The position numbers and the translations under genes are program-made. Of a stretch of DNA of 64,000 bases, positions 1 through 11,674 are shown one piece after another. Origin of the DNA: a virus (Duplodnaviria; Caudoviricetes); IMG/VR virus record IMGVR_UViG_3300037851_000284, positions 32,001-96,000 of that record; one strand, 5' to 3'. Under the pieces are notes generated by a model. It did not search any database. It was not told the DNA's origin and worked only from the letters and a program-made list of their open reading frames with translations. Each line of letters opens with the position of its first letter. The stretch's first letter is position 1.

Positions 1-99
1 ATAATTTTGGCAGAATAAACTAAAGTGGAAAGGTCTGCAAAGGATTCGAGTCCCTTTGTGCAGTATTAAAAGACCACGCGAATCCACAACTGTAATTTT

Positions 100-171
100 T
101 GAGGCGTAGGATAACGGCAATCCGCTGGATTGTTAATCCAGACATTACTGGTTCAAGTCCAGTCGCCTCAG
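100..171 (+). tRNA. trnN: tRNA-Asn(GTT)
   Basis: Acceptor TGAGGCG/CGCCTCA, anticodon arm CTGGA-TTGTTAA-TCCAG, T arm ACTGG-TTCAAGT-CCAGT; no encoded CCA. Confidence 0.92.
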
Positions 172-421
172 TTGTTTTGTGTAAGATTTATTATTATATT
201 TTAAGCTGATTTTCTATCCATACTTCCAATTTCGAATGTCTATTATCGGCAGACTTATTACTAGAATAAGCAGCCAAGCAAGAATGAGAGCAGAACAGCC
301 TGCTCGATTTAGATTTTTCAATTTCAGCGTTTGTTTTAATAATTTTCTTTTTACATGTTTCACAGTTAAGTTCTTTTTTACGACTTTTACAGACAGTTTC
401 GAAATTGAAAATTCAAAATAT

Positions 422-496
422 TGGGACGTAGTTCAATGGTAGAACAATGGCCCTTGGAGCCATCTGTTAAGGGTTCAAATCCTTTCGTCCCAGCCA
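422..496 (+). tRNA. trnQ: tRNA-Gln(TTG)
   Basis: Acceptor TGGGACG/CGTCCCA, anticodon arm ATGGC-CCTTGGA-GCCAT, T loop TTCAAAT, encoded CCA. Confidence 0.92.
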
Positions 497-506
497 GTTA
501 GGATAT

Positions 507-704
507 ATGCCTGAAAAAGAATATATATTAACACAATATTTTCTTGATAAGTACCCGTTAGAAGCCAAGACTATTGTAATTGGTGAACAAGAAACAAAGG
601 CCTTATTAAAAAACTTTAACGAGTTTTTTTACAATGATAGGATAAATAGTCCTATCCTACTAAGGGGTCAGTATACAAACAATATACTGATGAGAATTAA
701 ATAA
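507..704 (+). CDS. hypothetical protein
   Basis: 65 aa ORF directly after tRNA-Gln with AGGA RBS. Confidence 0.55.
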   Translation: MPEKEYILTQYFLDKYPLEAKTIVIGEQETKALLKNFNEFFYNDRINSPILLRGQYTNNILMRIK

Positions 705-802
705 CATGGAATTCAAACCAAACAAAATATCCAAAAGTAACACGCATTTTGGTGCCTCAGGAGAAGATACACCATAAATTACGTCGAGAATGGCTAGTTG
801 GC

Positions 803-836
803 AAAAACCCTCTCGACGAAAGTTGGGAGGGTTTTT
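803..836 (+). terminator. intrinsic terminator hairpin
   Basis: AAAACCCTCTCGAC-GAAA-GTTGGGAGGGTTTT stem with GNRA loop and T tract. Confidence 0.65.
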
Positions 837-996
837 AAATGGGTAAAAATATGAGCATTAAATGTAGAATATACTGGACTATAACAATTATATGTCCATG
901 GATCATAAGAAAACTCAATAAATATAAGAATAAGTGTCTAGCAAAGAGACTTGAGGACTTGTCTTGGACTATGAGTCATAACGAAGGAGGTATAAC

Positions 997-1242
997 ATGG
1001 ATGAACGTAGAACACCAGTTATAATAACAAGAAGAAAGAATAAGAAACGACATCCTCAGTCTGGAACCAAGTCTGGACGTTCCAAGGTATGGTACGAAGT
1101 TTTCTGTCCTATTCATGGAACAAAGAATATGGACAACAAAGTTGTATTAAAGGTGGGATGTCCCGAAAGTCGTAAGGAACGGTTCTATACTGGATGTCCA
1201 AAATGTAAAGCAATCAATGATAAAAAGGGGGCTGTAGTTTAA
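997..1242 (+). CDS. small Cys/His-rich hypothetical protein (possible Zn-binding)
   Basis: GGAGG RBS; CPxH ... CP ... CPxC; last codons overlap tRNA-Ala. Confidence 0.55.
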   Translation: MDERRTPVIITRRKNKKRHPQSGTKSGRSKVWYEVFCPIHGTKNMDNKVVLKVGCPESRKERFYTGCPKCKAINDKKGAVV

Positions 1243-1299
1243 TCGGAAAAATTGTAGATTTGCAATCTATAGTCATCGGATCGTAACCGATCAGCTCCA
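1228..1299 (+). tRNA. trnA: tRNA-Ala(TGC)
   Basis: Acceptor GGGGCTG/CAGCTCC with G3:U70 Ala determinant; anticodon arm GTAGA-TTTGCAA-TCTAT; atypical T loop ATCGTAA. Confidence 0.88.
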
Positions 1300-1500
1300 A
1301 GTAAGGAGATCATGTGGAAAAAATAACTTCCTTTAAATCAGATAAAACAAGAGAATTACATAACAAGTTAGTCGCCAATGTCAAAGATATCCTTGGAGAT
1401 ATTATACCAGATGGATACAAAATTAAAGAAATCCAAATTGATATATATAACGGGGAAACCCGTTTAATAATAAGTTCTGATATTTAAATAGAAGAAAAAT

Positions 1501-1698
1501 ATGTTTAAACTAGATCATGTCGGAAATACAAAGTTTTATACAATAATACCAATATTATTATATATTAGTGTTACAGAAATAAAACAGGAAGATAAAATGG
1601 TTGGTAAGAAGGCGGTAGCTATTGCTATTCATATTACACCCTTATTTGCATTTGGCTTTTCCATAATTAAGAAATTTAATGAATACGAGAATTGGTAA
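1501..1698 (+). CDS. small membrane protein, hypothetical
   Basis: 65 aa with two hydrophobic stretches. Confidence 0.5.
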   Translation: MFKLDHVGNTKFYTIIPILLYISVTEIKQEDKMVGKKAVAIAIHITPLFAFGFSIIKKFNEYENW

Positions 1699-1699
1699 G

Positions 1700-1774
1700 G
1701 CTGTATCGTTCAGTTTATTGTGAGAGCGTTTGCTTGAAACACAGAAGATTATTTATTCAATTCCGATTGCAGTT
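1700..1774 (+). pseudogene. degenerate tRNA, probably Phe(GAA)
   Basis: Residual acceptor GCTGTAT/ATTGCAGT, D-loop-like GTTCAGTT, loop TTGAAAC, T-loop-like TTCAATTCC, but anticodon and T stems no longer pair. Confidence 0.5.
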
Positions 1775-1791
1775 AACATAAAGGAGGAACT

Positions 1792-1989
1792 ATGGCAGAA
1801 TACTTGTATACACTACAGTTAAAGTTTACTGCTCTAGATGATGTAGCTGCAAGAACAGAGATATTTAACGAGGATTTTGAAAACAAACTTATTGCTTGTG
1901 GAACTAAAAAATTACAGGAAATTTATTTAGACAAGCCACCAAGAAAAGTAGATATCACAAATACCACAGTCCTTTCGTCCAGTGGTTAA
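1792..1989 (+). CDS. hypothetical protein
   Basis: Strong AAGGAGG RBS; 3' end overlaps tRNA-Glu. Confidence 0.55.
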   Translation: MAEYLYTLQLKFTALDDVAARTEIFNEDFENKLIACGTKKLQEIYLDKPPRKVDITNTTVLSSSG

Positions 1990-2039
1990 GACATCTGGTT
2001 TTCAGCCAGAAGACAAGAGTTCGATTCTCTTAAGGACTA
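1968..2039 (+). tRNA. trnE: tRNA-Glu(TTC)
   Basis: Acceptor AGTCCTT/AAGGACT, anticodon arm TCTGG-TTTTCAG-CCAGA, T arm AAGAG-TTCGATT-CTCTT. Confidence 0.92.
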
Positions 2040-2142
2040 AGAAGGGTCAACTATAAGTTATTACTTTTATATTGCTGGATCAATATGTTTTATAATTGGG
2101 TCGATAACCAGACTATTATTTAAACACTGAAATGAAACAACT

Positions 2143-2469
2143 ATGATAATCCACATAGAAAAGTTCTACGATTTTTATATCAATGCGTGTAAAAAGTTTA
2201 GCATATCCCCAGATGACTATACAACTTTTCATAATGATATAATTGTCACAGTAAGTCATGCCTTGGATTGTTTATTAAAAGATCCCACAGGGGGAATATA
2301 TTCAAACAAGCTCAGTAATGGAGCATACATTCTATTAATTCCTGATTTGTCAGGATTTGTATATGCCATAGTTCCAACAATTGAAGAAAGAGACAAAATA
2401 TTGAAAGAACTACTCGAAAGATACTCATCAAAAGAGAATAAATCCTTAACTGGAGTAGAGTTATTCTAA
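2143..2469 (+). CDS. hypothetical protein
   Basis: 108 aa ORF coupled (TAATG) to the HNH gene. Confidence 0.6.
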   Translation: MIIHIEKFYDFYINACKKFSISPDDYTTFHNDIIVTVSHALDCLLKDPTGGIYSNKLSNGAYILLIPDLSGFVYAIVPTIEERDKILKELLERYSSKENKSLTGVELF

Positions 2470-3065
2470 TGTTTGAAGATTCTGTAGTTGTATTAAATAA
2501 ATATCTGGAATACTGGACTGACACATCAATTAGAAGAGCAGTAAGTAAGATAATAAACAATAGGGCTTCTGTAGTAAAAGAAGATAAGTCGGTATTATTG
2601 GGAACTATAGGAATTGGAATAGGAACAGAGTCAATACTCCAACCAATATATAAACCATTAGTAATTAAGCTGTTATATTTCGATTACTATAGATACAAGA
2701 CCGACAAGGTTAATTATACGGACAGGGCGGTATTTGTAAGGGACCAAGGAATTTGCCAATATTGGCATAACAATACACAATACAAGTGTCTACCTTCTGA
2801 AATGACCATCGACCATGTAATCCCGTTATCTAGAAACGGAAAGGCTAATGATTTCACTAATGCCGTTACTTGTTGCCGGAATTGTAATGAAATACTTAAG
2901 AAAAATAATACTCCAGAAGAAGCGGGGTTAAGGCTCATTAGAAGCCCAAAAATACCAAAGAGAATAAAAGGAGATGCGGTAAGATCCTTTTTCATATATA
3001 ATAATAAGAGTCTTGCTCATAAAGCATATATAGAGTTTCTCATGGGTATTAGTACAGATGGATAA
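2469..3065 (+). CDS. HNH endonuclease (McrA-like)
   Basis: VFVRDQGICQY ... TIDHVIPLSRNG ... NAVTCCRNCN ... TPEEAGLRL signature. Confidence 0.88.
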   Translation: MFEDSVVVLNKYLEYWTDTSIRRAVSKIINNRASVVKEDKSVLLGTIGIGIGTESILQPIYKPLVIKLLYFDYYRYKTDKVNYTDRAVFVRDQGICQYWHNNTQYKCLPSEMTIDHVIPLSRNGKANDFTNAVTCCRNCNEILKKNNTPEEAGLRLIRSPKIPKRIKGDAVRSFFIYNNKSLAHKAYIEFLMGISTDG

Positions 3066-3068
3066 TAT

Positions 3069-3139
3069 GGGGTATTAGTTCAGTGGTAGAATATCTCCCT
3101 GTCACGGAAAAGCCACCAGTTCAATTCTGGTATACCCCG
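3069..3139 (+). tRNA. trnD: tRNA-Asp(GTC)
   Basis: Acceptor GGGGTAT/ATACCCC, loop CTGTCAC, T arm ACCAG-TTCAATT-CTGGT. Confidence 0.9.
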
Positions 3140-3254
3140 TTATAACTAAATTAAATTATTGAGAGAAAGCAAATGGAATATCAGAACTTTTTGTAGACAA
3201 CAAGCTAAGAGATAGAAACTTCGTACCAACAGCAGGATGGAAACTAGATTAAAA

Positions 3255-3339
3255 GGAGAGTTAGGATAACGGTAATCCATTAGGTTGCTAACCTAACGAC
3301 CCAAAAAGGGTCTTGCAAGTTCAAATCTTGTACTCTCCT
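3255..3339 (+). tRNA. trnS: tRNA-Ser(GCT)
   Basis: Acceptor GGAGAGT/ACTCTCC, anticodon arm TTAGG-TTGCTAA-CCTAA, long variable arm GACCC-AAAAA-GGGTC. Confidence 0.92.
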
Positions 3340-3357
3340 CTAAAAGAAAGAATCAGC

Positions 3358-3630
3358 ATGATTGAATTACGCTTCACTAGTCCAGCTAGCATTTATTCTC
3401 AAAGGTCTGAGAGACCATTCAAGAGAATTAATCAACTAGATGCATATCTAGATAGTCTTGAGCTTCCGGAGAGAATGACGTTTAAAGAAGAAAGAGGAAC
3501 ATATACTACAGTGTTTTGCCATTCTGGAGAATTAGTGATAATCAGAATGGATATGTATCTTTCCTGGATATTACAAGAAGAATTAAGAGAATTTTTAACA
3601 CAACATGGATTTATAACAAGAAGGAACTAA
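3358..3630 (+). CDS. hypothetical protein
   Basis: ATG at 3358 chosen because the longer TTG start lies inside tRNA-Ser. Confidence 0.55.
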   Translation: MIELRFTSPASIYSQRSERPFKRINQLDAYLDSLELPERMTFKEERGTYTTVFCHSGELVIIRMDMYLSWILQEELREFLTQHGFITRRN

Positions 3631-3706
3631 GTGTCGTTGGCCTAGTGGTTTTGGGTCCCAGATTTCCAATCTGGTCACAGGTGTTCGATTCACCTACGGC
3701 ACTCCA
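3631..3706 (+). tRNA. trnG: tRNA-Gly(TCC)
   Basis: Acceptor GTGTCGT/ACGGCAC, U73, CCA; anticodon arm CCAGA-TTTCCAA-TCTGG. Confidence 0.9.
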
Positions 3707-3710
3707 TTTT

Positions 3711-4244
3711 ATGGAAAAAGAATTCATAGTAAAAGTAAAAGACTTTGATGAAAAGACAGACCCAACTAAGGTACATAACTGGAAAATTGGGGAAATAAAT
3801 TATACTGTCAATGTCGAAGAATATACATTTGATCCAAAGCCTAGAGCCTTGAATTTAAGAAGATCTTGTAATGAAGATTCAATAAACTCAGGGGATCCAG
3901 TAAGAGTACGCAATCTAGTAGAATCTCCAATAATGACAGTGGTGGAAATAAGACAGGAAAACGACGCAAAACGTCAGCGTATGGTGGAAGTTGTTGATGT
4001 AATTTGGTTTGATCAATTCCGTAATGTTAAAACAGCAGGTATAAGATTGGATCTGGTTGAGAAAGTAAATAAATCAGAGACATCTAAACCAAAATTTTCC
4101 GATGTAAGCATAGTAACTTCCGATCTCGTATTTAGAAGGCTGTGTTCTATAGGAGAAAAAGGTCTTGCTGTAAGGTACTTGAAGACTATGACTGGATTGG
4201 GAGTAAAAGAAGCACAGGATATTGTAGATAAAACTTCAACATAA
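3711..4244 (+). CDS. multi-module protein: YodC/DUF2158-like domain plus C-terminal ribosomal bL12-CTD-like motif
   Basis: GDPVRV...SPIMTV...VIWFD (DUF2158-like) and AVRYLKTMTGLGVKEAQDIVD (bL12-like helix pair); start moved past tRNA-Gly. Confidence 0.55.
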   Translation: MEKEFIVKVKDFDEKTDPTKVHNWKIGEINYTVNVEEYTFDPKPRALNLRRSCNEDSINSGDPVRVRNLVESPIMTVVEIRQENDAKRQRMVEVVDVIWFDQFRNVKTAGIRLDLVEKVNKSETSKPKFSDVSIVTSDLVFRRLCSIGEKGLAVRYLKTMTGLGVKEAQDIVDKTST

Positions 4245-4255
4245 GCAGAAATAAA

Positions 4256-4343
4256 GAAAGCGTGGCAGAGTCTGGTATCGCATCGGTCTTGAAAATCGAA
4301 AACGAAAAACGTTTCGCAGGTTCAAATCCTGTCGCTTCCTCCA
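4256..4343 (+). tRNA. trnS: tRNA-Ser(TGA)
   Basis: Anticodon arm TCGGT-CTTGAAA-ATCGA, long variable arm, T arm GCAGG-TTCAAAT-CCTGT, CCA; one acceptor mismatch. Confidence 0.88.
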
Positions 4344-4358
4344 AATGAAGGAGATATT

Positions 4359-4988
4359 ATGAAAAACCCATACTGGGGAGATAAAGATGACTCACAATCG
4401 AAAATAATTTCAACAAATAACTCATCAAGAGCAGAGATATACAAAGAGCTTGCGTTTGTTGAAACAGTATCTAATAGAATATATTTCTATTCAGAGATTG
4501 GAAGAAACGAGGTTCTTCAACTGAACAGAAGACTAAGGGAATTAAGTAACGAGCTCTTGGTAGCCGCAGCTGAACAAGAAAGACCACCAGCAAAGATATT
4601 TTTACATATTAACAGCTTTGGTGGGTCCATATTTGCAGGATTATCTAGTATGGACGAAATAGTCAGTTCACGAGCATCAATAACAACCATAGTAGATGGA
4701 TGTTGTGCTTCTTCGGCAACTTTCCTATCTGTAGTAGGAAAAGAAAGGATAATAAGACCAAATGCCTTTATGCTAATTCACCAACTACAGTCAGCATTTT
4801 GGGGAGGTAAATTCAGGGAATTACAGGATGAACATAAAAATAGTGAGAAACTAATGGAAACCATAAAAGACATATACAAGAAACATACAAAAATCCCACC
4901 GGAAAAGATAGATGAAATTCTTGATCACGATTTATGGTTTGATGCCAGAACTTGTGTAGATTATGGTCTAGTAGACAAAATTGCCTAA
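4359..4988 (+). CDS. clpP: ClpP-family serine protease
   Basis: LHINSFGGS, GCCASSAT (Ser), FMLIHQ (His), DHDLWF (Asp). Confidence 0.9.
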   Translation: MKNPYWGDKDDSQSKIISTNNSSRAEIYKELAFVETVSNRIYFYSEIGRNEVLQLNRRLRELSNELLVAAAEQERPPAKIFLHINSFGGSIFAGLSSMDEIVSSRASITTIVDGCCASSATFLSVVGKERIIRPNAFMLIHQLQSAFWGGKFRELQDEHKNSEKLMETIKDIYKKHTKIPPEKIDEILDHDLWFDARTCVDYGLVDKIA

Positions 4989-5360: not shown

Positions 5361-5587
5361 GAAATTAGAAAAATCGTGGTGAAGAATTTGATGGCAGTAT
5401 TAAATTTAAGAGATGTAGATTATGCTCTAGACATTGTGGAGGAAAAGTAAATTTAATCAGACATAGTAGGGTCATTTTTAGATCACCTCCGTGCCATACT
5501 AATAAGATTGAATTATGTAGACAATGCATAAGGAACCCGCTTACACAAAATAGAATAAGCATGGGTTATTTCAAGGGAACACCATGA
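5357..5587 (+). pseudogene. Cys-rich small gene interrupted by in-frame TAG at codon 4
   Basis: GTG overlaps upstream stop (GTGA) and TGA overlaps downstream start (ATGA); reads MRN*KNRG...CRLCSRHC...CRQC. Confidence 0.45.
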
Positions 5588-5940
5588 AAATTCTAATATT
5601 AGAGGATAGTTCAGATAGGATAGACGAATTCAAGAAAAAACTTGTCAGCCACGAAGTAGTTATAACAAACAAGCCAAGTGAATGTATCAAGTTTCTTGAG
5701 GAAGGGAAATGGGACTATCTATTTCTAGACCACGATATGGGTGTAATATTTGAGAAACCCAGTAAAGGCACAGGTTATGAAGTAGCATTGTGGATAGCAG
5801 AACATACTGAATATTGTCCAAGGCATATACTTATTCATAGTATGAATAATGTAGGTGCCGCTGCTATGATGCAAGTTCTTGGTTCTGTTGGAGTAAGAGC
5901 TACTTATATACCCCTTTTATGGGAAAAGATAAGAATATAA
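5584..5940 (+). CDS. cyclic-phosphate-processing receiver-like domain (cREC type)
   Basis: ILILED ... LFLDHDMG ... GTGYEVALW ... IHSMNNVG: DHD and HSxN motifs typical of this divergent receiver family. Confidence 0.75.
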   Translation: MKILILEDSSDRIDEFKKKLVSHEVVITNKPSECIKFLEEGKWDYLFLDHDMGVIFEKPSKGTGYEVALWIAEHTEYCPRHILIHSMNNVGAAAMMQVLGSVGVRATYIPLLWEKIRI

Positions 5941-6194
5941 ATTTTAGAGCCAATTCAGCAAAAGAAAGCAACAACAAGGGAAAACCCAGAATAGTAGAAA
6001 TATGGGATAATAGTTGTAATTTTAGGATATTTTGCATTGAGGAAAGAAAACGTATACTCTTTTTTCAATACTGGAAAAGAATTTGTAATGGTAGTCTCTC
6101 AAAGAAATTCAAAATAGAAGAGGAAGCAAGGAATTTCATAAATAACGGATGCCAATTTACACTAATTCGTGGACAAAGAATAATACAGGTATAA
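5919..6194 (+). CDS. hypothetical protein
   Basis: 91 aa ORF in the gene chain. Confidence 0.45.
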   Translation: MGKDKNINFRANSAKESNNKGKPRIVEIWDNSCNFRIFCIEERKRILFFQYWKRICNGSLSKKFKIEEEARNFINNGCQFTLIRGQRIIQV

Positions 6195-6304
6195 CATGAT
6201 AAATCTAAGAAATAATTACAAGTGTGAGCAAAAACTTCGTCAGAGTTAAGAAATAAGTATAGAATAGAAAGATCTGGGGAGTGTTTCTATATACAAAAGA
6301 ACCA

Positions 6305-6347
6305 GTGATTCTAGGGGTCGTGAGTTCAAATCTCACATACCAACCCA
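6305..6347 (+). pseudogene. 3' half of a tRNA-His(GTG)-like gene
   Basis: GTGATTCTAGG-GGTC-GTGAG-TTCAAAT-CTCAC-ATACCAA-C-CCA; no pairing 5' half found upstream. Confidence 0.55.
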
Positions 6348-6359
6348 AGGAGAAATAAA

Positions 6360-6911
6360 ATGGAATTCATACCATTTCCAAAAATACACAGGATATCCAG
6401 ACCTTGTGTTGTTACAGAAAAGATTGATGGCACAAATGCATGTATATGTATTACCAAAGAAGGAGAATTCCTAACTGGTTCACGTACCAAATGGATAACT
6501 CCTTCCGATGATAATCATGGGTTCTCAAAGTGGGCCCATGAGAACAAAGACGAACTGTTAAAACTCGGTATTGGCTGTCATCATGGAGAATGGTGGGGAC
6601 AGGAGATTCAAAGAACATATGGATTAAAGGAAAAGAGGTTTTCTCTATTTAATACATCTAAATGGCTAGACCCACTTGTAAGACCAAAATGTTGTCATAT
6701 TGTACCAGTATTATATGAGGGCTTATTTGACACTGTGGAAATAAACAAATGTCTGGATCGCCTTGCTCAAACAGGAAGCATAGCAGCACCAAACTTTATG
6801 AAACCAGAAGGAATAGTTATATTTCATGTAGCTGGAAATTTTTGCCTAAAAAAGACTTTAAACAATGATGGATTACCAAAGAGTTTGGTAAAGGAGGAAC
6901 AGCATGCCTAG
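6360..6911 (+). CDS. ATP-dependent RNA ligase (compact adenylyltransferase domain)
   Basis: FPKI start, motif I TEKIDGTN, GEWWG, PEGIVI, terminal KK. Confidence 0.85.
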   Translation: MEFIPFPKIHRISRPCVVTEKIDGTNACICITKEGEFLTGSRTKWITPSDDNHGFSKWAHENKDELLKLGIGCHHGEWWGQEIQRTYGLKEKRFSLFNTSKWLDPLVRPKCCHIVPVLYEGLFDTVEINKCLDRLAQTGSIAAPNFMKPEGIVIFHVAGNFCLKKTLNNDGLPKSLVKEEQHA

Positions 6912-6976
6912 GATTATAGATTATGAAGATTGGATGGATATTCATAATATGTTAGCAGAAATGAAGTCCTATAATA

Positions 6977-7282
6977 ATGAAGAACCTCCGGAAGAGGAAG
7001 ATGATGATAACATGGGACAAACATCCTGATATAGTTACTAGGAAAAGAACATCTAAACTGGGTATTTGCAATAGATGCGACTCCTTCTCTTCCTTATTTA
7101 CTTCGGGTGATGGTTATTATCTCTGTAGAGAATGTTACAGAGATATAATTGGTAGCATATTTGATACAGAACTAAATGAAAAAATAAATAAGATGAGGAA
7201 AGAAAGAGAATTAAACGCAAGAGAGTTTGATTTTATTAACAGGAGAAAAAGGGGTCTCTGTCCATTAGTACTGAGATGGTAA
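6977..7282 (+). CDS. small Zn-finger hypothetical protein
   Basis: CNRC ... CREC. Confidence 0.5.
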   Translation: MKNLRKRKMMITWDKHPDIVTRKRTSKLGICNRCDSFSSLFTSGDGYYLCRECYRDIIGSIFDTELNEKINKMRKERELNAREFDFINRRKRGLCPLVLRW

Positions 7283-7357
7283 TTCCTTCTTCCTTTTTGA
7301 ATTATTCGGATGATATTTTGTTTCGTTAGGGAACATGAACAAAGTATCAAGATAAGC

Positions 7358-7439
7358 TGGAGTTTCAACGTTAGTGTTGTACCTGTTCATTACTGGTTTC
7401 TAGTGGTAAGTAACTAAGGGGTAAACACGATATTATCCA
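7358..7439 (+). ncRNA. candidate structured RNA (nested hairpin)
   Basis: TGGA/TCCA, GTGTT/AACAC, TACC/GGTA and ATTACTGG/CTAGTGGT nested pairings in an intergenic gap. Confidence 0.35.
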
Positions 7440-7442
7440 ATA

Positions 7443-7561
7443 GCGGGTGTAGTACAGAGTTACTTCTGGTTTAATGCGAAAGCAGAGTGGGTCGAATCCC
7501 ACAACCCTATAGAAATATAGGTCTTGTCTCTGTATAATTTGTCTCTGTATAATTTGCCCGC
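7443..7561 (+). ncRNA. Y-RNA-like unit A (with T-arm-like hairpin)
   Basis: GCGGG/CCCGC; TGTAG; TACAGAG/CTCTGTA; TTACTTC; inner GTGGG-TCGAAT-CCCAC and CCTATA-GAAA-TATAGG. Confidence 0.65.
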
Positions 7562-7571
7562 AAAAATTTAA

Positions 7572-7651
7572 AAGAAACTGGGTGTAGATAGCAGATACTT
7601 CACTTTTATTGAAAAAAGCAGAAACCCTGCTATTGATTTAATCAGTTTCTT
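7572..7651 (+). ncRNA. Y-RNA-like unit B
   Basis: AAGAAACTG/CAGTTTCTT; TGTAG; ATAGCAG/CTGCTAT; ATACTTC; inner TTCA-CTTTTAT-TGAA. Confidence 0.65.
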
Positions 7652-7665
7652 TTCAGTATAAACCT

Positions 7666-7737
7666 GTGGGTGTAGAAAACTGTTACTTCGACTGCTAATC
7701 GACGCCCGAAAGGGATATCAGTTTTCGCTTTTCCCAC
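7666..7737 (+). ncRNA. Y-RNA-like unit C
   Basis: GTGGG/CCCAC; TGTAG; AAAACTG/CAGTTTT; TTACTTC; inner TCGA-CTGCTAA-TCGA and CCC-GAAA-GGG. Confidence 0.7.
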
Positions 7738-7758
7738 TTTTATTTTCTTGGAGGTAAT

Positions 7759-8133
7759 ATGCCTAGAATAAAGGTTGCGTTGTTAATATATAAACCGTTA
7801 TCAGACAATCAAGACCAACAAGATAAAATCCTTCTGGTAGAAAGACCAGATGGAAGTATGTCTATTCCAACAGTACAAGTTGGAGACTATCAAGGGATTA
7901 AGGAATGTATTGACCATTTAGTGAACCCTCACATGGAAATAGAAGAGACGGAACCAATTGGTATCTATGAAGATATGGATATAGAAATACATGATATCTA
8001 CATAGTATACCTGTGCGAAGTTAAAATAAAGGCAACAATCCCTTGTAATTATAAATGGATAACAGGAAAAAGCGTTAGCTTCCAATATAGACATATAGAC
8101 CAAAATTCAAGAGAAATTATTGAGATGTTATAA
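7759..8133 (+). CDS. NUDIX-fold protein with degenerate Nudix box
   Basis: KVALLI...KILLVERPDGSMSIP...G then no REUXEE; later IGIYED...IVYLC and KWI as in MutT-like fold. Confidence 0.55.
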   Translation: MPRIKVALLIYKPLSDNQDQQDKILLVERPDGSMSIPTVQVGDYQGIKECIDHLVNPHMEIEETEPIGIYEDMDIEIHDIYIVYLCEVKIKATIPCNYKWITGKSVSFQYRHIDQNSREIIEML

Positions 8134-8139
8134 AATTTT

Positions 8140-8199
8140 AAAGGGTGTAAACAAGAGATACTTCTACCATAATGAAACTCTCTTGCTGCTTTTCCCTTT
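8140..8199 (+). ncRNA. Y-RNA-like unit D (minimal)
   Basis: AAAGGG/CCCTTT; TGTAA; CAAGAG/CTCTTG; ATACTTC; TGCTTTT. Confidence 0.65.
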
Positions 8200-8213
8200 A
8201 TTAACATTACATC

Positions 8214-8277
8214 GGACGGGTGTAGTCGGGAGATACTTCTATAACGGTGAAAAAAACTCCCAACGCTTTACTCGTCC
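8214..8277 (+). ncRNA. Y-RNA-like unit E (minimal)
   Basis: GGACGGG/CTCGTCC; TGTAG; GGGAG/CTCCC; ATACTTC; CGCTTTA; ends 20 nt before the Ro60 start. Confidence 0.65.
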
Positions 8278-8297
8278 ATTTTTAAAAAGGAGAACGT

Positions 8298-9776
8298 ATG
8301 AAAGCGAATACAAGTGCTGAAGGACAGGGACTATCCAAGATAACCGACGGAGTAGTTCTAAATAAAGAAGGAGCAGTGGCTTACGCTCTGAAGGATAAAG
8401 AGAAACTAGTCACAGGTATTTTAACGAACTTCTTTAAAGAGCCTAAATTTTATGGAGATAATACCCCTGAGATAATCGAGACTGCCCGTAAGATTATACA
8501 GGAAGATCCAGAGTTCGTGGCAAAGGCAGCGTGCTTTGCACGTAACAAGTTTCATATGAGATCCATCTCTCATGCTCTTTCCGCCGAAGTAGCAAGAGGG
8601 GCAAAGGGGAATAAAATTGTCCGCAAGATGATCAGAAAAGTCATTGAGCGGGCCGATGATATGACTAACATTATATCATATCATATAAACACATGGGGAA
8701 AGCGTGGGAAAGAAAATCCTATTCCAAGAGGACTTCGAAGAGGTCTAGCCGATGTGTTTCCTCGGTTTGACGAGTATGCACTGGCAAAATACAAAGGAGA
8801 GAGCAAAACCGTCAAACTGCGTGACGTTCTCAAAATGATTCATCCCACTCCAAAGAATAAGGAGCAGGGTGAAATGTGGAAGCGTCTTATTGAGGGAACG
8901 CTGGCTACTCCTGAGACCAGAGAGACAATACTCTCTGATAAAGGACAGTCAAAGGAAGTATGGGAAAGTATCCTAGATGGTAAAGCGGGATACATGATGA
9001 TACTCCGCAACTTGAAAAATATACTTGAGCATGGTATAGATGATACTCATCTAGATAAAGTGTGCTCTCTATTGAAGGATCCTGATGAAGTTCGTTCCTC
9101 AAAACAACTTCCGTTCAGATTCCTTTCCGCATACAGAATGGTTCAAGATATGGGCAATCCGAGAGGAGCAAAGGTATTAGAAACTCTGGAAGATGCTCTT
9201 CTAACATCGACCGAGAACGTACAAAAGCTAAAAGGAATAACTGCTGTACTGACAGACGAATCAGGATCAATGACTCGTCTATTATCAAAAAACTCGTTAG
9301 TTAGGTACAGAGATGTTGGTAATTTGTTGGCAGCCATTTCACACAGAATATGTGATAGTTCTGTTATTGTCCCCTTTGGCACAGATGCTGTAGTATTAAC
9401 ACTTTCTCCTAGATCAAGCGTATTTGATAACATGAAGAGAATGAATAGTTCTGGTGTTGGCCACTCAACCAATGTACACATAGCTCTAGGAAAAGCATTC
9501 TCTGTAAATGTAAAAATAGACAGGATAATCCTGTTCTCAGATATGCAGGCTTATGGATGCTCAGATGGAATAAATTCCATGGTTCAGAACTACAGACGTG
9601 ATAAGAATTCCAACTTATGGGTACATTCTGTAGACCTAGCGGGATATGGAACCACCCAGTTAACGGATAAAGTTAATCTGATAGCAGGATGGTCAGAGAA
9701 GATTCTAGACTACATAGGTCTCGTCGAGAACAGAGGGTTAAGTCTTGTAGAAGATATTGAAAACTACAAGCTGTAA
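8298..9776 (+). CDS. Ro60/TROVE-domain RNA-binding protein with C-terminal vWA domain
   Basis: NKEGAVAY start, DPEFVAKAACFAR, YALAKY, HP, TWE-like TRETILS, YMMILRNL, LPFRFLSAY, MIDAS DESGS, FSDMQ, DLAGYG. Confidence 0.93.
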   Translation: MKANTSAEGQGLSKITDGVVLNKEGAVAYALKDKEKLVTGILTNFFKEPKFYGDNTPEIIETARKIIQEDPEFVAKAACFARNKFHMRSISHALSAEVARGAKGNKIVRKMIRKVIERADDMTNIISYHINTWGKRGKENPIPRGLRRGLADVFPRFDEYALAKYKGESKTVKLRDVLKMIHPTPKNKEQGEMWKRLIEGTLATPETRETILSDKGQSKEVWESILDGKAGYMMILRNLKNILEHGIDDTHLDKVCSLLKDPDEVRSSKQLPFRFLSAYRMVQDMGNPRGAKVLETLEDALLTSTENVQKLKGITAVLTDESGSMTRLLSKNSLVRYRDVGNLLAAISHRICDSSVIVPFGTDAVVLTLSPRSSVFDNMKRMNSSGVGHSTNVHIALGKAFSVNVKIDRIILFSDMQAYGCSDGINSMVQNYRRDKNSNLWVHSVDLAGYGTTQLTDKVNLIAGWSEKILDYIGLVENRGLSLVEDIENYKL

Positions 9777-9786
9777 CCCTCTGATA

Positions 9787-9822
9787 ATACGGGGGATACA
9801 CGACAAAAGTATCCCTCGTATG
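9787..9822 (+). terminator. hairpin after Ro60
   Basis: ATACGGGGGATAC-N9-GTATCCCTCGTAT; weak T tract. Confidence 0.45.
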
Positions 9823-9834
9823 TTCTATACTAAT

Positions 9835-10047
9835 GGGATAAGTTAAGTGAAAAGCAAATATTCTAGAGATATAGGAAAATAGATTAGAATAGGCCCCCCT
9901 TTTGCATCTTTTCGGGGCTACTGGACATTTCTAAAAGATACTGGGTTGTTGACTACAACACAGTTAGTATGACTGTATTATACTTGGTAAGTGGGATCAA
10001 ACAACCTGTAGTCCTGTTTATTCCATGCTACCATCTTGATTTATCCC
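9835..10047 (+). ncRNA. candidate ~210 nt rod-like structured RNA
   Basis: GGGATAAGTTAAGTG/CATCTTGATTTATCCC closing stem with nested GAATAGGC/GTTTATTC, GGCTAC/GTAGTC, GGGTTGTT/AACAACCT. Confidence 0.5.
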
Positions 10048-10059
10048 CTTAATTTTATC

Positions 10060-10159
10060 TTTTGGAGTAACTTTGGATAATACAAGTTTTATTGAACAAA
10101 GGAAAGGAGTATTTTACAAAGTCGCGTCGCTGTAACTGTGACTAGTGCAGACTTCAAAA
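10060..10159 (+). ncRNA. candidate ~100 nt structured RNA
   Basis: TTTTGGAGT/ACTTCAAAA closing stem; ACTTTG/CAAAGT, AATAC/GTATT, GTCGC/GTGAC inner pairings. Confidence 0.35.
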
Positions 10160-10188
10160 CTCTTTTACAACGTTAGTTAAAAGTAAAA

Positions 10189-10608
10189 ATGACAAGTGTA
10201 CATTTAAGAGACAAAAACAATCTAATAACAATAGCAGTCGCCGGAAAAGTTCCAATAAGAGGAAGAACCTCCTCTAACCAATATTTTCATACCCCATTAG
10301 AATTATTACTGTGTTCCCTTGGTCTCTGTGTTGGAGGGATCATAAATAATTTTTGTCGCGTGTATGATATTAATCCCCTTATATTTGAGGATATTACCAT
10401 ATCTTTCGATGGATTTATATTTATTGTATCTCTAACTAGACCTTCTGATTTCAAGCTAGAGTTTGAAAGGTTGCTAGAGATTTACATAAAAGATTGTTCA
10501 ATAGCGAGAGAACTAAAAAAAGATTTATCCATAAAATGGGGCGTAAACAGCGCACCAGTGGAGAAATTGATAGCAAGAAAAGAAAAGCCTTGCTGTGGAG
10601 GAAACTAA
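10189..10608 (+). CDS. OsmC-like protein
   Basis: TPLELLLCSLGLCVGG and distal CSIARELK two-Cys pattern. Confidence 0.7.
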   Translation: MTSVHLRDKNNLITIAVAGKVPIRGRTSSNQYFHTPLELLLCSLGLCVGGIINNFCRVYDINPLIFEDITISFDGFIFIVSLTRPSDFKLEFERLLEIYIKDCSIARELKKDLSIKWGVNSAPVEKLIARKEKPCCGGN

Positions 10609-10928
10609 TGGCTTTGAATTTAAGAAGAGGACTATCGAAAGACGATCAAATACAACACGATAAAGAGATGAATCAAAAACCAGTAGTGGTAGATGAAGAG
10701 ATCAACCTTAACAACTGTGTTTTTTGTATTACAGGAACAATACAAGGAATGACCAGAGACCAAGCAGTAAAGAAAATATTGGAGAAGTTTCCAAGCGCAA
10801 GATTCTCACCATCTATGTCCTCAGATGTAGAATATCTTATTACTGGTACTGGATGTGGACAGACAAAATTACGGGTAGCAGCAAGAAGAGGAAGTACACT
10901 AATTGAAGCTAACTCAATCCTAAGGTAA
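10608..10928 (+). CDS. stand-alone BRCT-domain protein
   Basis: FCITGT...MTRDQA...SMSSDVEYLITG...GQTKLRVAARRG as in NAD-ligase/RFC BRCT; start set at ATG 10608. Confidence 0.75.
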   Translation: MALNLRRGLSKDDQIQHDKEMNQKPVVVDEEINLNNCVFCITGTIQGMTRDQAVKKILEKFPSARFSPSMSSDVEYLITGTGCGQTKLRVAARRGSTLIEANSILR

Positions 10929-10931
10929 TAT

Positions 10932-11159
10932 ATGCCTATATTGCAAGGTAAGTGGGTATCAAGCCATCTAGAAGAACATAGGAGAATGTTTGATAACCTA
11001 TGTGTCATTTTGTCAGATCTAGAACATAGTGACGTAGTATTACCAAGGAACGAAAACGGTGTAATATTATGGAATCAGATATCAGTTGAATTTCTAATTA
11101 ATTTTGCATTGTTAAATGCGACAAAGGTAACACATAAGCATACAGAAGAGTCAGCATAA
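10932..11159 (+). CDS. hypothetical protein
   Basis: 75 aa, coupled to the next gene. Confidence 0.5.
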   Translation: MPILQGKWVSSHLEEHRRMFDNLCVILSDLEHSDVVLPRNENGVILWNQISVEFLINFALLNATKVTHKHTEESA

Positions 11160-11674
11160 TGAATCATCCCGTTGAAACTATTAGTATATATCTATGTGGA
11201 TATATAGGCGGACCACAAGTTTTAGATAAATGTAAACAATGGCGCCTAGATATAATCAAACATTACAACAATTACAAGGGTCAACGATATCCCATAATTT
11301 GGTTGGATCCAATTAATGGTAGGGACGCAGGAATAACAGATGAACACGGTCTCCAATCCAATGTCCCACCACACGCCATAATTCACAGAGATTATCAATG
11401 TGTTAGAAGATCTGATCTTCTAATAATAAATACTGATACCTTTGGAGAGAAGAGACCACTAATAGGTTCAATATTTGAAATTGCTTGGGCGTGGGAACAT
11501 CATATCCCCATTATAATGATTACAGACGATTCAATATTTGTAAATCATCCATTTACAAATTATGTAGTTTCTCACAGGGTGTCTTCTGTAGAGGAATTAT
11601 TAGAAAAGAAGGTCATAAACTACTATTTCAAAGGGTGGAACGATGCAATTTATTACGAAGAAAGAAAAAAGTAG
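11159..11674 (+). CDS. nucleoside 2-deoxyribosyltransferase/Rcl-like hydrolase
   Basis: IYLCG...WR...DP...RDYQCVRRSDLLI...GSIFEIAWA. Confidence 0.8.
   Translation: MNHPVETISIYLCGYIGGPQVLDKCKQWRLDIIKHYNNYKGQRYPIIWLDPINGRDAGITDEHGLQSNVPPHAIIHRDYQCVRRSDLLIINTDTFGEKRPLIGSIFEIAWAWEHHIPIIMITDDSIFVNHPFTNYVVSHRVSSVEELLEKKVINYYFKGWNDAIYYEERKK

What the first reader, a model, noticed from the sequence alone, without database searches (positions are those of the whole stretch)
5584..11674. Compact RNA-repair island beside the tRNA array: cREC receiver, RNA ligase, NUDIX-like, Y RNAs, Ro60
Seen: within about 4 kb are a DHD/HSxN receiver-like domain, a KIDG RNA ligase, a NUDIX-fold ORF and Ro60, followed by OsmC-like, BRCT and NDT-like genes, all directly downstream of eight tRNAs. 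Established: ATP-dependent RNA ligases need 3'-OH/5'-P ends, so 2',3'-cyclic phosphate must be healed first; cREC-type domains and Ro60 recur in predicted RNA-repair neighbourhoods. Inference: this is a healing-sealing-chaperone pathway without a recognisable T4-type Pnkp. No polynucleotide kinase is visible in the window, so the 5'-kinase step is unexplained.
Basis: partly seen in the sequence, partly recalled or inferred. Interest (0 to 1): 0.7.

Follow-up and report, generated by a model that had tools for sequence, protein, structure and literature searches.

The report
Phage Ro60, Y RNA and RNA-ligase island
A 219-kb phage carries, just after its tRNA genes, a conserved RNA-surveillance and repair gene cluster (a predicted cyclic-phosphate enzyme, an RNA ligase, five small Y RNAs and the Ro60 ring protein); it is a real example of a kit already described by computation in large phages, and it lacks the kinase a full repair pathway would need.

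Summary
Window 5584-9776 encodes:
- a cREC receiver-like protein (PF20274);
- a 183-aa RNA ligase with all catalytic motifs;
- a small zinc-ribbon protein;
- five Y-RNA-like genes;
- a NUDIX-fold protein with a degenerate Nudix box;
- Ro60.

An OsmC-like, BRCT, 75-aa and NDT-like block follows.

**Conservation.** The order recurs in related 57-230-kb phage contigs. Four of them carry an OB-fused Rnl5-type ligase in the slot where this phage has the minimal ligase. Two have no ligase and one has no Ro60. The whole region is syntenic as far as a ClpC-like gene, so order alone is weak evidence of function.

**Missing enzymes.** The genome has no polynucleotide kinase, RtcB, KptA, sirtuin, 2H, HAD or HD enzyme. 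A complete relative also lacks the kinase. One metallophosphoesterase lies 8.7 kb upstream.

**Reading.** A Ro60-Y RNA and ligase RNA-surveillance and repair module with an incomplete healing arm. cREC activity remains a published prediction with no experimental test.

**Novelty.** New member of a known kind. cREC-ligase links and TROVE proteins in jumbo phages, and Y RNAs beside phage Ro60, are already published. This scan reported similar modules before on other DNA (e1-3297857, e1-4047057, e1-4039243).

The parts
99..4343 (+). Eight tRNA genes (Asn, Gln, Ala, Glu, Asp, Ser, Gly, Ser), the last part of a 20-tRNA array
   Evidence: ARAGORN and Rfam; whole-genome ARAGORN
5584..5940 (+). cREC (cyclic-phosphate-processing receiver-like) protein, 118 aa
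   Evidence: PF20274 E 4.4e-18. Invariant D8, D49-H50-D51, H85, N88 and no conserved Lys. AF2 model pLDDT 97 with a receiver fold. 57-70% identical orthologues in five relatives.
6254..6347 (+). Decayed tRNA-like remnant with an intact T arm (6320-6336), at the place where relative G001 has tRNA-His
   Evidence: Called by ARAGORN only at an 80% threshold; T-arm sequence read directly; tRNA-His in G001
6360..6911 (+). Minimal ATP-dependent RNA ligase: nucleotidyltransferase domain only, 183 aa
   Evidence: PF09414 E 6.9e-16. Motifs I, III, IIIa, IV and V are invariant in 40 homologues. AF2 pLDDT 90.4; the best PDB matches are T4 Rnl2, Naegleria Rnl5, REL1 and Rnl3. At least 8000 homologues of about 180 aa.
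6977..7282 (+). Basic zinc-ribbon protein (CxxC...CxxC), 101 aa, conserved after the ligase
   Evidence: Orthologues follow the Rnl5-type ligase in L056 and L057. Weak DUF4428, zinc-ribbon and S14 matches.
7443..7561 (+). Y-RNA-like unit A, with a T-arm-like hairpin (7487-7502) and a 2 x 15-nt tandem duplication (7526-7555)
   Evidence: Shared motif; MFE fold z -4.7; covariation across 17 units
7577..7646 (+). Y-RNA-like unit B
   Evidence: z -1.8
7666..7737 (+). Y-RNA-like unit C
   Evidence: z -2.2
7759..8133 (+). NUDIX-fold protein, 124 aa, with a degenerate Nudix box, lying inside the Y RNA array
   Evidence: Strong GGAGG ribosome-binding site. Atlas model TM 0.72-0.80 to NUDIX domains. 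Catalytic RE..EE is replaced. No sequence relatives.
8140..8199 (+). Y-RNA-like unit D
   Evidence: z -2.7
8214..8277 (+). Y-RNA-like unit E
   Evidence: z -4.4
8298..9776 (+). Ro60 (TROVE plus vWA) ring protein, 492 aa
   Evidence: TROVE E 1.5e-34; vWA_Ro60 22 bits; phrog_850 E 8e-43; 56-60% identical orthologues in four relatives
9777..10188 (+). Structured non-coding gap after Ro60, with a strong hairpin near 9787-9821
   Evidence: strand folding z -3.5, 0 of 100 shuffles fold as well. Not followed further.
10189..10608 (+). OsmC-like protein with conserved cysteines (C47, C103, C-terminal CC)
   Evidence: Weak OsmC matches in six orthologues; alignment. Conserved neighbour; no shown tie to RNA repair.
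10608..10928 (+). Stand-alone BRCT-domain protein
   Evidence: PF00533 at 28.6 bits, over the cut-off; start set from the orthologue alignment
10932..11159 (+). Conserved 75-aa protein of unknown family
   Evidence: 40-50% identical orthologues in all five relatives
11159..11674 (+). Nucleoside 2-deoxyribosyltransferase-like protein
   Evidence: PF05014 at 24.4 bits here and 30.6 bits in the G001 orthologue, which is over the cut-off; 70-73% identity to G001 and L056

Best explanation
This is a conserved accessory module of a clade of large phages (contigs of 57-230 kb). It combines a Ro60 ring protein with five YrlA-like Y RNAs, an ATP-dependent RNA ligase, a small zinc-ribbon protein and a cREC protein. 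It sits at the end of the phage's tRNA array.

The most likely role is RNA surveillance and repair during infection:
- Ro60-Y RNA particles bind damaged or misfolded structured RNAs. This is inferred from bacterial Rsr-Y RNA biology.
- The ligase reseals breaks that carry 3'-OH and 5'-phosphate ends. This is inferred from intact catalytic motifs and from a fold shared with Rnl2 and Rnl5.
- cREC is predicted to open 2',3'-cyclic phosphates on RNA ends or on ADP-ribose derivatives. This is a literature prediction and has not been tested.

The healing arm is incomplete. The phage has no polynucleotide kinase, HAD phosphatase, 2H enzyme, KptA or sirtuin. Its one metallophosphoesterase lies 8.7 kb upstream in the tRNA array. 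As encoded, therefore, only breaks that already have a 5'-phosphate, or that the host has healed, can be sealed.

The minimal 183-aa ligase has replaced the OB-fused Rnl5-type ligase that four of six relatives carry in the same slot. The NUDIX-fold gene here has lost its catalytic box. The OsmC-like, BRCT, 75-aa and NDT-like block is a separately conserved neighbour, not a shown part of the module.
For: Family assignments:
- cREC, RNA ligase and TROVE all score over Pfam cut-offs.
- The ligase motifs are invariant. Its model is closest to T4 Rnl2 and Naegleria Rnl5, ahead of DNA ligases.

Y RNAs:
- Five units share one scaffold. The motif occurs 5 times against 0.09 expected and nowhere else in the genome.
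- Each unit folds alone into the same two-stem shape.
- In 17 units from five phages, each unit's two halves pair with each other at 6.65/7 and 5.4/6 positions, against 4.05 and 3.9 across units. None of 100,000 permutations reaches this.
- A unit in relative G001 aligns end to end with Rfam YrlA (25.6 bits, E 0.0099).

Conservation:
- The cREC, ligase, Y array, Ro60 order is seen in G001, L056 and L057.
- Ligases of two different types occupy the same slot, at 24-25% identity and with no OB remnant.
- The zinc-ribbon gene follows either type of ligase.
- A canonical NUDIX gene is in the cluster in L056 and L059.

Literature:
- cREC is linked in operons to RNA ligases and fused to Nudix. TROVE proteins occur in a subset of jumbo phages (PMC7824862, PMC9503650).
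- Y RNAs lie next to Ro60 in more than 250 bacteria and phages (PMC4201824).
- The Salmonella rsr-yrlBA-rtcBA operon joins Ro60, Y RNAs, a ligase and a cyclic-phosphate enzyme (PMC7790460).
Against: - No activity of any part has been shown. cREC is experimentally uncharacterised (PMC9503650; no later study found).
- The genome lacks a kinase, RtcB, KptA, PNK3P, SIR2, 2H and HD enzymes. Every Walker-A ORF is an AAA+, RecA, UvrD or DnaB type. The complete relative G001 also lacks the kinase.
- The ligase is absent next to cREC in two relatives, and Ro60 is absent in one.
- The whole region is syntenic as far as the ClpC-like gene. Shared order may therefore reflect common descent only.
- In Caulobacter phages and mycobacteriophages the minimal ligase lies among DNA replication and nucleotide-metabolism genes. 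In two metagenomic phage contigs it lies without cREC or Ro60.
- Ligases reduced to the nucleotidyltransferase domain are defective in full nick sealing in DraRnl (PMC1807946).
- The metallophosphoesterase is 46 kb from the island in G001.
Confidence: 0.55

Rival explanations
1. This is an NAD+/ADP-ribose or cyclic-nucleotide signal-clearing counter-defence. cREC, the NUDIX protein and the NDT-like enzyme degrade ADP-ribose-derived or cyclic-phosphate immune signals. The ligase and Ro60 are neighbours with separate jobs.
For: - The literature places cREC, Nudix and the deoxyribohydrolase (NDT/TIR) superfamily in one NAD+-ADPr network and notes cREC-Nudix fusions (PMC9503650).
- A distant cREC homologue sits next to a Macro domain (L060).
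- cREC, NUDIX and the OsmC-like block stay together in L059, which has no Ro60 or Y RNAs.
- No KptA, sirtuin or kinase is present to support an RNA-end pathway.
Against: - The NUDIX-fold protein of this phage lacks the catalytic box.
- The genome has no NAD+-consuming KptA or sirtuin that would generate ADP-ribose cyclic phosphate.
- An RNA ligase of either type directly follows cREC in 5 of 7 phages of the clade (the window plus four of six relatives).
- The NDT-like gene lies 5 kb from cREC, with Ro60 in between.
Confidence: 0.17
2. The co-location has no shared function. This is a variable accessory zone next to the tRNA array, where unrelated genes accumulate. The minimal ligase serves DNA replication, for example by sealing RNA-primed nicks. 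Ro60-Y RNA acts alone.
For: - The whole region from the DNA ligase to the ClpC-like gene is syntenic among relatives.
- The ligase or Ro60 can be lost individually.
- The minimal ligase lies beside DNA polymerase, Dda helicase, dNMP kinase and thymidylate synthase genes in other phages.
- ClpP, a membrane ORF and the NUDIX-like ORF are unique insertions in this phage.
Against: - Two non-orthologous RNA ligases occupy the same slot after cREC.
- Independent published cREC-RNA ligase linkages exist in unrelated phages and cells (PMC7824862).
- The bacterial rsr-yrlBA-rtcBA operon shows the same functional grouping (PMC7790460).
Confidence: 0.15
3. This is a complete healing-sealing-chaperone pathway for anticodon-cleaved tRNA that works without a Pnkp. 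The 5'-phosphorylation is supplied by an unrecognised phage protein or by the host.
For: - The cluster lies directly after 20 tRNA genes.
- A metallophosphoesterase of a phage family (phrog_547, E 1.6e-55) lies inside the tRNA array and could remove 2'/3'-phosphates.
- Several conserved small proteins of unknown family (75 aa, zinc ribbon) are in the cluster.
Against: - No P-loop kinase of any kind apart from AAA+, RecA, UvrD and DnaB types is present. The complete relative is the same.
- The Rnl5-type ligases of the relatives belong to a family characterised as sealing nicks in duplexes, not anticodon loops (PMC4408790, PMC5397189).
- The phosphoesterase is unlinked to the island in G001.
Confidence: 0.1

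Closest known systems
Jumbo-phage RNA-repair repertoire with cREC (Iyer, Anantharaman, Krishnan, Burroughs, Aravind 2021, PMC7824862; Iyer, Burroughs et al. 2022, PMC9503650)
   Same: - cREC stands alone next to an RNA ligase.
- Nudix is in the same neighbourhood.
- A TROVE protein is present in a subset of large phages.
- The genome is tRNA-rich.
- All functions are assigned by context only.
   Different: - The published cREC neighbourhoods usually include a kinase, HAD or calcineurin-like phosphatase, sirtuin, KptA or 2H enzyme. This genome holds none of these except one unlinked metallophosphoesterase.
- The ligase here is a 183-aa nucleotidyltransferase-only form, not Rnl1, Rnl2 or RtcB.
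- In the passages of those two papers that I read, I did not see cREC, ligase, Y RNA array and Ro60 described as one contiguous block.
Salmonella Typhimurium rsr-yrlBA-rtcBA operon (PMC7790460, PMC4201824)
   Same: One cluster holds Ro60, tandem Y RNA genes, an RNA ligase and an enzyme acting on RNA cyclic-phosphate ends.
   Different: - The ligase is ATP-dependent and needs 3'-OH/5'-P ends, whereas RtcB joins 3'-P or cyclic-P ends to 5'-OH.
- cREC is predicted to open cyclic phosphates, whereas RtcA makes them.
- There are five Y RNAs rather than two.
- RtcB is absent. RtcR was not searched for.
- The context is a phage.
YrlA-type Y RNAs next to phage Ro60 (Chen et al. 2014, PMC4201824; Rfam RF02553)
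   Same: - An outer stem, an internal loop and an inner 7-bp stem enclose a variable module.
- The genes lie just upstream of Ro60.
- The tRNA-like T and D arms are present in some units of relative G001, and a T arm is present in window unit A.
   Different: - No window unit reaches any Rfam score. The best relative unit scores 25.6 bits against a cut-off of 69.
- Four of five window units have lost the tRNA-like domain and carry short hairpins instead.
Rnl5 nick-sealing RNA ligases (DraRnl, NgrRnl; PMC1807946, PMC4408790, PMC5397189) and T4 Rnl2
   Same: The nucleotidyltransferase fold and motifs I-V are shared. Relatives of this phage carry a true Rnl5 architecture, PHA02142 OB plus PF09414, in the same slot.
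   Different: The window's ligase has neither the N-terminal OB module of Rnl5 nor the C-terminal domain of Rnl2. It is only 24-25% identical to the relatives' Rnl5.
T4 Pnkp + Rnl1 tRNA repair pathway
   Same: It is a phage-encoded answer to RNA breakage, and the genome also carries its own tRNAs.
   Different: There is no kinase-phosphatase. The ligase belongs to another family.

Membership tests
cREC_REC (PF20274) | Profile match over the curated cut-off | tested here: met
   66.2 bits against 27; the G001 orthologue scores 62.8 bits
cREC_REC (PF20274) | Receiver (beta-alpha)5 fold with conserved acidic residues at the beta1 and beta3 ends | tested here: met
   AF2 pLDDT 97; five strand-helix units. 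Foldseek top hits are all receiver domains, TM 0.58-0.71 over the 50 listed. D8 and D49-H50-D51 are invariant.
cREC_REC (PF20274) | Not part of a histidine kinase phosphorelay | tested here: met
   No HATPase_c anywhere in the genome. The conserved receiver Lys before the beta5 Pro is absent.
cREC_REC (PF20274) | Cyclic-phosphate phosphodiesterase activity | not testable with these tools
   Predicted from context only; stated to be experimentally uncharacterised (PMC9503650)
ATP-dependent RNA ligase (PF09414; Rnl2/Rnl5-like) | Nucleotidyltransferase motifs I (KxDG), III, IIIa, IV and V | tested here: met
   K21-x-D23-G24, G76-E77-W78, F94/L96/F97, E150-G151 and K164 are invariant in 40 homologues
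ATP-dependent RNA ligase (PF09414; Rnl2/Rnl5-like) | Fold closest to RNA ligases rather than DNA ligases | tested here: met
   The top 27 Foldseek hits are Rnl2, Rnl5, REL1, Rnl3 and a fungal tRNA ligase. A putative DNA ligase is at rank 28 and characterised DNA ligases from rank 29.
Rnl5 / Rnl2 subfamilies | Appended substrate-binding domain (N-terminal OB in Rnl5, C-terminal domain in Rnl2) | tested here: not met
   183 aa with only PF09414. No OB remnant upstream. Relatives do have PF21189 plus PF09414.
ATP-dependent RNA ligase | Preference for RNA 3'-OH strands | not testable with these tools
   Needs a biochemical assay. The context in other phages is DNA replication.
Ro60 / TROVE | TROVE domain followed by a vWA domain with a DxSxS metal site | tested here: met
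   TROVE at 120.4 bits. The DESGS motif has D320, S322 and S324 invariant against G001. vWA_Ro60 scores 22 bits, below its cut-off of 27.7.
Bacterial Rsr (NF041674 equivalog) | Equivalog-level score | tested here: not met
   30.5 bits against a cut-off of 900: a divergent phage Ro60, at most 34% identical to any isolated-phage Ro60
YrlA Y RNA (RF02553) | Covariance-model score over the gathering threshold | tested here: not met
   No hit in the window at E up to 10. The G001 unit scores 25.6 bits against 69.
YrlA Y RNA (RF02553) | Long stem with an internal loop, encoded beside Ro60, supported by covariation | tested here: met
   Caveat: the 3' halves were located by requiring pairing, so the permutation test leans towards the structure. 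The conserved CGUUUUU-like linker was not required by that search.
YrlA Y RNA (RF02553) | tRNA-like domain (T and D arms) | tested here: inconclusive
   Only unit A keeps a T-arm-like hairpin. G001 units 4 and 5 have both arms.
NUDIX hydrolase (PF00293) | Nudix box GX5EX7REUXEEXGU | tested here: not met
   The aligned segment reads DHLVNPH where L056 has REVKEET. No Pfam match. The fold itself matches.
T4-type heal-and-seal pathway | Polynucleotide 5'-kinase and 3'-phosphatase | tested here: not met
   No AAA_33 match over the cut-off, no PNK3P, no small Walker-A ORF. Rnl1 (PF09511) was not searched.
rsr-yrlBA-rtcBA operon | RtcB ligase | tested here: not met
   No PF01139 match in the genome. 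RtcA and RtcR were not searched.
OsmC/Ohr | Profile match and two conserved cysteines | tested here: inconclusive
   17.8-22.9 bits in six orthologues, all below the cut-off of 27.5. C47 and C103 are invariant.
Nucleoside 2-deoxyribosyltransferase-like (PF05014) | Profile match over the cut-off | tested here: inconclusive
   The window scores 24.4 bits against 28.8. The 70% identical G001 orthologue scores 30.6 bits.

The most novel reading that the evidence does not exclude
The cluster is a self-contained, kinase-free RNA repair machine. It would be a phage counterpart of rsr-yrlBA-rtcBA built from different chemistry. cREC would convert cyclic-phosphate ends into a form that the ligases can use directly, or together with the small conserved zinc-ribbon protein. 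The five Y RNAs, with their different inner modules, would present or mimic distinct broken tRNAs on Ro60.
Probability: 0.1. Interest if true: 0.7.

Novelty: new member of a known kind. Interest (0 to 1): 0.38.

Why it matters
cREC is a widespread phage domain, reported in up to 18% of jumbo phages, and its enzymatic activity has never been measured. This clade offers compact natural constructs for a direct test of the published prediction: a stand-alone 118-aa cREC next to either of two ligase types.

The locus also shows that an RNA ligase slot beside cREC is kept while the ligase itself is exchanged. It shows that a large phage can carry Ro60, Y RNAs and a ligase with no end-healing kinase at all. 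That limits which kinds of host RNA damage the kit can answer.

If the parts work together, the module would be a phage parallel to the bacterial Rsr-RtcB operon. None of this changes the general picture already drawn by comparative genomics.

Tried and rejected
- Megablast of the island against isolated phages gave no match. tblastn of cREC against isolated phages gave no match.
- The search for related loci with Ro60 alone found nothing. With a two-sequence alignment it found only G001.
- Rfam at gathering and at permissive thresholds found no Y RNA in the window.
- The 124-aa ORF had no relative in an exhaustive HMMER search. Pairwise BLASTP to the relatives' NUDIX proteins was weak (E 0.003 and 6.8). 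The NUDIX call therefore rests on the Atlas model and on position.
- The 91-aa ORF at 5919-6194 is rejected as a gene. It has no ribosome-binding site, no conservation with ORFs at the same position in relatives and no tblastn hit.
- I looked for a remnant of the Rnl5 OB domain between cREC and the minimal ligase and found none.
- I asked whether the small ORF after the minimal ligase in an unrelated phage contig matches the zinc-ribbon protein. It does not.
- The MAFFT alignment of six Y units misplaced the 3' halves. No covariance model was built, and covariation was counted by script instead.
- No complex prediction was run, because no binding claim is made.
- In the window's genome the metallophosphoesterase sits between two tRNA genes, which looked like a link to the island. 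Its G001 homologue lies 46 kb from the island, so I do not count it as part of the module.

Full report
**Source and setting**

The window is bases 32001-96000 of a 219,054-bp viral record. CheckV rates it 95% complete, and GC content is 28-40% in 2-kb windows, mostly near 33%. ARAGORN finds 20 tRNA genes at genome 14170-36343. The last eight lie at window 99-4343. Between the final tRNA and the finding are a ClpP gene (4359-4988, PF00574 E 7.8e-31) and a hydrophobic 119-aa ORF.

**Checking the observation**

Pfam gives the following:

| Position | Family | Result |
|---|---|---|
| 5584-5940 | cREC_REC | 66.2 bits, cut-off 27 |
| 6360-6911 | RNA_ligase PF09414 | 59.3 bits |
| 8298-9776 | TROVE | E 1.5e-34, plus a sub-threshold Ro60 vWA domain |
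| 10494-10928 | BRCT | 28.6 bits, over the cut-off |
| 10189-10608 | OsmC | 17.8 bits, under the cut-off |
| 11159-11674 | Nuc_deoxyrib_tr | 24.4 bits, under the cut-off |

PHROGs agrees for the ligase (phrog_548) and Ro60 (phrog_850).

The ORF at 7759-8133 has no Pfam, PHROG or NCBIfam family above threshold and no HMMER relative among 1.8 billion representatives. Even so, the NUDIX call is supported:
- The ESM Atlas holds this exact protein. Its model (pTM 0.74) superposes on NUDIX domains at TM 0.72-0.80 over 114-122 residues.
- Two relatives carry a canonical PF00293 gene in the same cluster.
- When aligned, the window protein keeps the N-terminal strand pattern and the IH-D/N-hydrophobic-Y-x-C segment. 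Its Nudix box reads DHLVNPH where L056 has REVKEET.

It is therefore a NUDIX fold that is probably not a hydrolase.

**The Y RNAs**

Reading 7260-8320 shows five units built alike: an outer stem, GGGUGUAG, a 7-nt inner-stem strand, (U/A)UACUUC, a variable insert, the complementary 7 nt, a U-rich linker, and the outer-stem complement.

- The shared motif occurs 5 times in the window against 0.09 expected. It occurs nowhere else in the genome.
- Each unit, folded on its own, gives the same two-stem shape, with z-scores of -1.8 to -4.7.
- A pattern scan of viral contigs found one record with five hits, a 213,094-bp phage with terminal repeats (G001). Its units lie directly upstream of a Ro60 that is 57-60% identical.
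- In 17 units from five phages, each unit's 5' halves pair with its own 3' halves at 6.65/7 and 5.4/6 positions. Against other units' halves the figures are 4.05 and 3.9. None of 100,000 permutations reaches the observed total, and most stem positions show two to six pair types.
- Caveat: the 3' halves were located by requiring pairing, so this test leans towards the structure. The conserved CGUUUUU-like linker was not required by the search.
- One G001 unit aligns over the whole Rfam YrlA model (25.6 bits, E 0.0099, cut-off 69) with the same stem, loop, stem, T-arm, D-arm order. No window unit scores at all.

The units are best described as divergent YrlA-like Y RNAs. In this phage most have lost the tRNA-like domain; only unit A keeps a T-arm-like hairpin.

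**The ligase**

The 183-aa protein carries motifs I (KIDG), III (GEWWG), IIIa, IV (EGIVI) and V (LKKT). All are invariant in 40 homologues.

- Its AF2 model (pLDDT 90.4) is closest to T4 Rnl2, Naegleria Rnl5, trypanosome REL1 and archaeal Rnl3. DNA ligases rank lower.
- It has no appended domain.
- The family is very large: at least 8000 proteins of about 180 aa at 60-72% identity.
- In two metagenomic phage contigs examined it stands without cREC or Ro60.
- In Caulobacter phage CcrBL9 it lies among DNA polymerase, Dda helicase, dNMP kinase and thymidylate synthase genes. In mycobacteriophages it lies beside ThyX.

An RNA-repair role is therefore not the only possibility. Truncated ligases of this superfamily are known to lose steps of the reaction (PMC1807946).

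**cREC**

Twenty-eight homologues keep D8, D49-H50-D51, G64, E66, H85, N88 and G91. No conserved lysine precedes the beta5 proline.

- The model has pLDDT 97 and the receiver fold.
- A profile search of the PDB gives only weak receiver hits.
- The genome has no histidine kinase ATPase domain.

This fits the published definition of cREC. That definition is a prediction from context, and the authors state the domain is experimentally uncharacterised. I found no later experimental paper.

**Relatives and gene order**

cREC homologues at 57-73% identity lie on long phage contigs. The contexts are:

| Phage contig | Gene order |
|---|---|
| G001 | cREC, tRNA-His, Rnl5-type ligase (PHA02142 OB + PF09414), five Y units, Ro60, OsmC-like, BRCT-like, small ORF, NDT-like |
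| L056 | cREC, Rnl5, zinc ribbon, Y units, NUDIX, Ro60, OsmC-like, BRCT, NDT-like |
| L057 | cREC, Rnl5, zinc ribbon, Y units, Ro60, OsmC-like |
| L058 and one further contig (carrying cREC homologue P0134) | cREC, a non-coding gap (one Y unit detected in L058), Ro60; no ligase |
| L059 | cREC, Rnl5, NUDIX, OsmC-like; no Ro60 |

- The Rnl5 genes are orthologous to one another at 40-59% identity. They are only 24-25% identical to the window's ligase, and no OB remnant lies upstream of it.
- The slot after cREC has therefore been refilled with a different ligase. That is better evidence of a functional tie than shared order is.
- The zinc-ribbon protein at 6977-7282 follows the ligase in the window, L056 and L057, whichever ligase type is present.
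- The whole stretch as far as a ClpC-like ATPase is syntenic, so order alone could reflect descent.
- The OsmC-like, BRCT, 75-aa and NDT-like block is present in all five relatives, including the one without Ro60.
- A more distant cREC (41% identity) sits next to a Macro domain in a different context.

**The missing healing enzymes**

Family searches of the whole genome find none of the following: an AAA_33 kinase over its cut-off, RtcB, KptA/Tpt1, PNK3P, SIR2, 2H, HD, or a second PF09414 ligase.

All ORFs of 80 aa or more with a Walker A motif are AAA+, RecA, UvrD or DnaB-primase proteins or very large proteins. The complete relative G001 also lacks the kinase.

One candidate end-processing enzyme does exist. 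It is a 192-aa calcineurin-like phosphoesterase (phrog_547 E 1.6e-55; PF12850 33.5 bits; related to Aquifex aq_1665). It lies at genome 28335-28913, between tRNA-Met and tRNA-Ile, 8.7 kb upstream of cREC and outside the window. Its G001 homologue lies 46 kb from the island, so I do not count it as part of the module.

**Interpretation**

ATP-dependent ligases need 3'-OH and 5'-phosphate ends; this is established enzymology. Breaks made by metal-independent anticodon nucleases carry 2',3'-cyclic phosphate and 5'-OH. Repairing those breaks would need three things:
- a cyclic phosphodiesterase, for which cREC is the only candidate;
- removal of the resulting phosphate, possibly by the metallophosphoesterase;
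- a 5'-kinase, which is absent.

The encoded set can therefore seal only breaks that already carry a 5'-phosphate, or breaks healed by the host.

The most economical reading is an RNA-surveillance and repair module centred on Ro60-Y RNA particles and a ligase. cREC is a predicted but untested end-processing enzyme. The nearest functional parallel is the Salmonella rsr-yrlBA-rtcBA operon (PMC7790460). The nearest description is the jumbo-phage RNA-repair catalogue (PMC7824862, PMC9503650).

Two rival readings remain open. One is that cREC, NUDIX and the NDT-like enzyme belong to an NAD+/ADP-ribose signal-clearing network. The other is that the genes merely share an accessory zone.

**Novelty**

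All the components and most of the pairings are already in the literature:
- cREC with a ligase;
- cREC with Nudix;
- Ro60 with Y RNAs;
- TROVE proteins in jumbo phages.

This scan has also reported similar modules on other DNA. One of those reports describes Ro60, five Y RNAs, a ligase, a receiver-like protein and tRNA-His.

Three things are particular to this phage:
- the contiguous arrangement of all the parts;
- the exchange of ligase type in a fixed slot;
- the complete lack of a kinase.

I file it as a new member of a known kind.

Noticed in passing
window 6254-6347: A decayed tRNA-like element with a perfect T arm (6320-6336) lies just upstream of the minimal ligase. ARAGORN calls it only at a relaxed threshold. 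Relative G001 has an intact tRNA-His at the same place, so this may be a scar of the ligase exchange.
   Followed up: partly
window 7526-7555: Y unit A contains an exact 2 x 15-nt tandem duplication of its 3' inner-stem strand and linker. This gives two alternative closing partners for the inner stem.
   Followed up: no
window 9777-10188: The 412-nt gap after Ro60 folds far better than shuffles do (z -3.5). It has a 13-bp hairpin near 9787-9821 and a long multibranched domain. The same gap is only 150-300 nt in relatives.
   Followed up: partly
genome 28335-28913 (L064:1498-2076), outside the window: A 192-aa calcineurin-like phosphoesterase (phrog_547) is wedged between tRNA-Met and tRNA-Ile in the tRNA array. 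It is the only candidate phosphate-removing enzyme in the genome. Its G001 homologue lies elsewhere (78.3 kb).
   Followed up: partly
window 6977-7282: The conserved zinc-ribbon protein gives a weak match to zinc-ribbon ribosomal protein S14 (NCBIfam NF004424, E 1.2e-5, 25 bits against a cut-off of 54). Relatives L056 and L057 also encode a bL12-like protein (PF00542) a little upstream of cREC.
   Followed up: no
L054 12181-12249 (G001): ARAGORN calls this stretch tRNA-Ile and Rfam calls it tRNA (31.1 bits, over the cut-off). It is in fact the 5' part of a Y RNA unit, so automatic annotation of these phages will mislabel Y RNAs as tRNAs.
   Followed up: partly
L059 11133-12665: In this relative the NDT-like gene is called as a 510-aa product with a LAGLIDADG domain. 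Only its first ~96 residues align to the NDT-like protein. That suggests an intein or a homing-endonuclease insertion.
   Followed up: no
window 4359-4988 and 14477-16543: The phage encodes its own ClpP and a ClpC-like double-AAA ATPase. The ATPase is syntenic in relatives. The ClpP at this position is not found in the fetched regions of the five relatives.
   Followed up: partly
window 10189-10608 and orthologues: The OsmC-like proteins all end in a conserved Cys-Cys-Gly tail, in addition to the two OsmC-type cysteines. This is unusual for the family.
   Followed up: no
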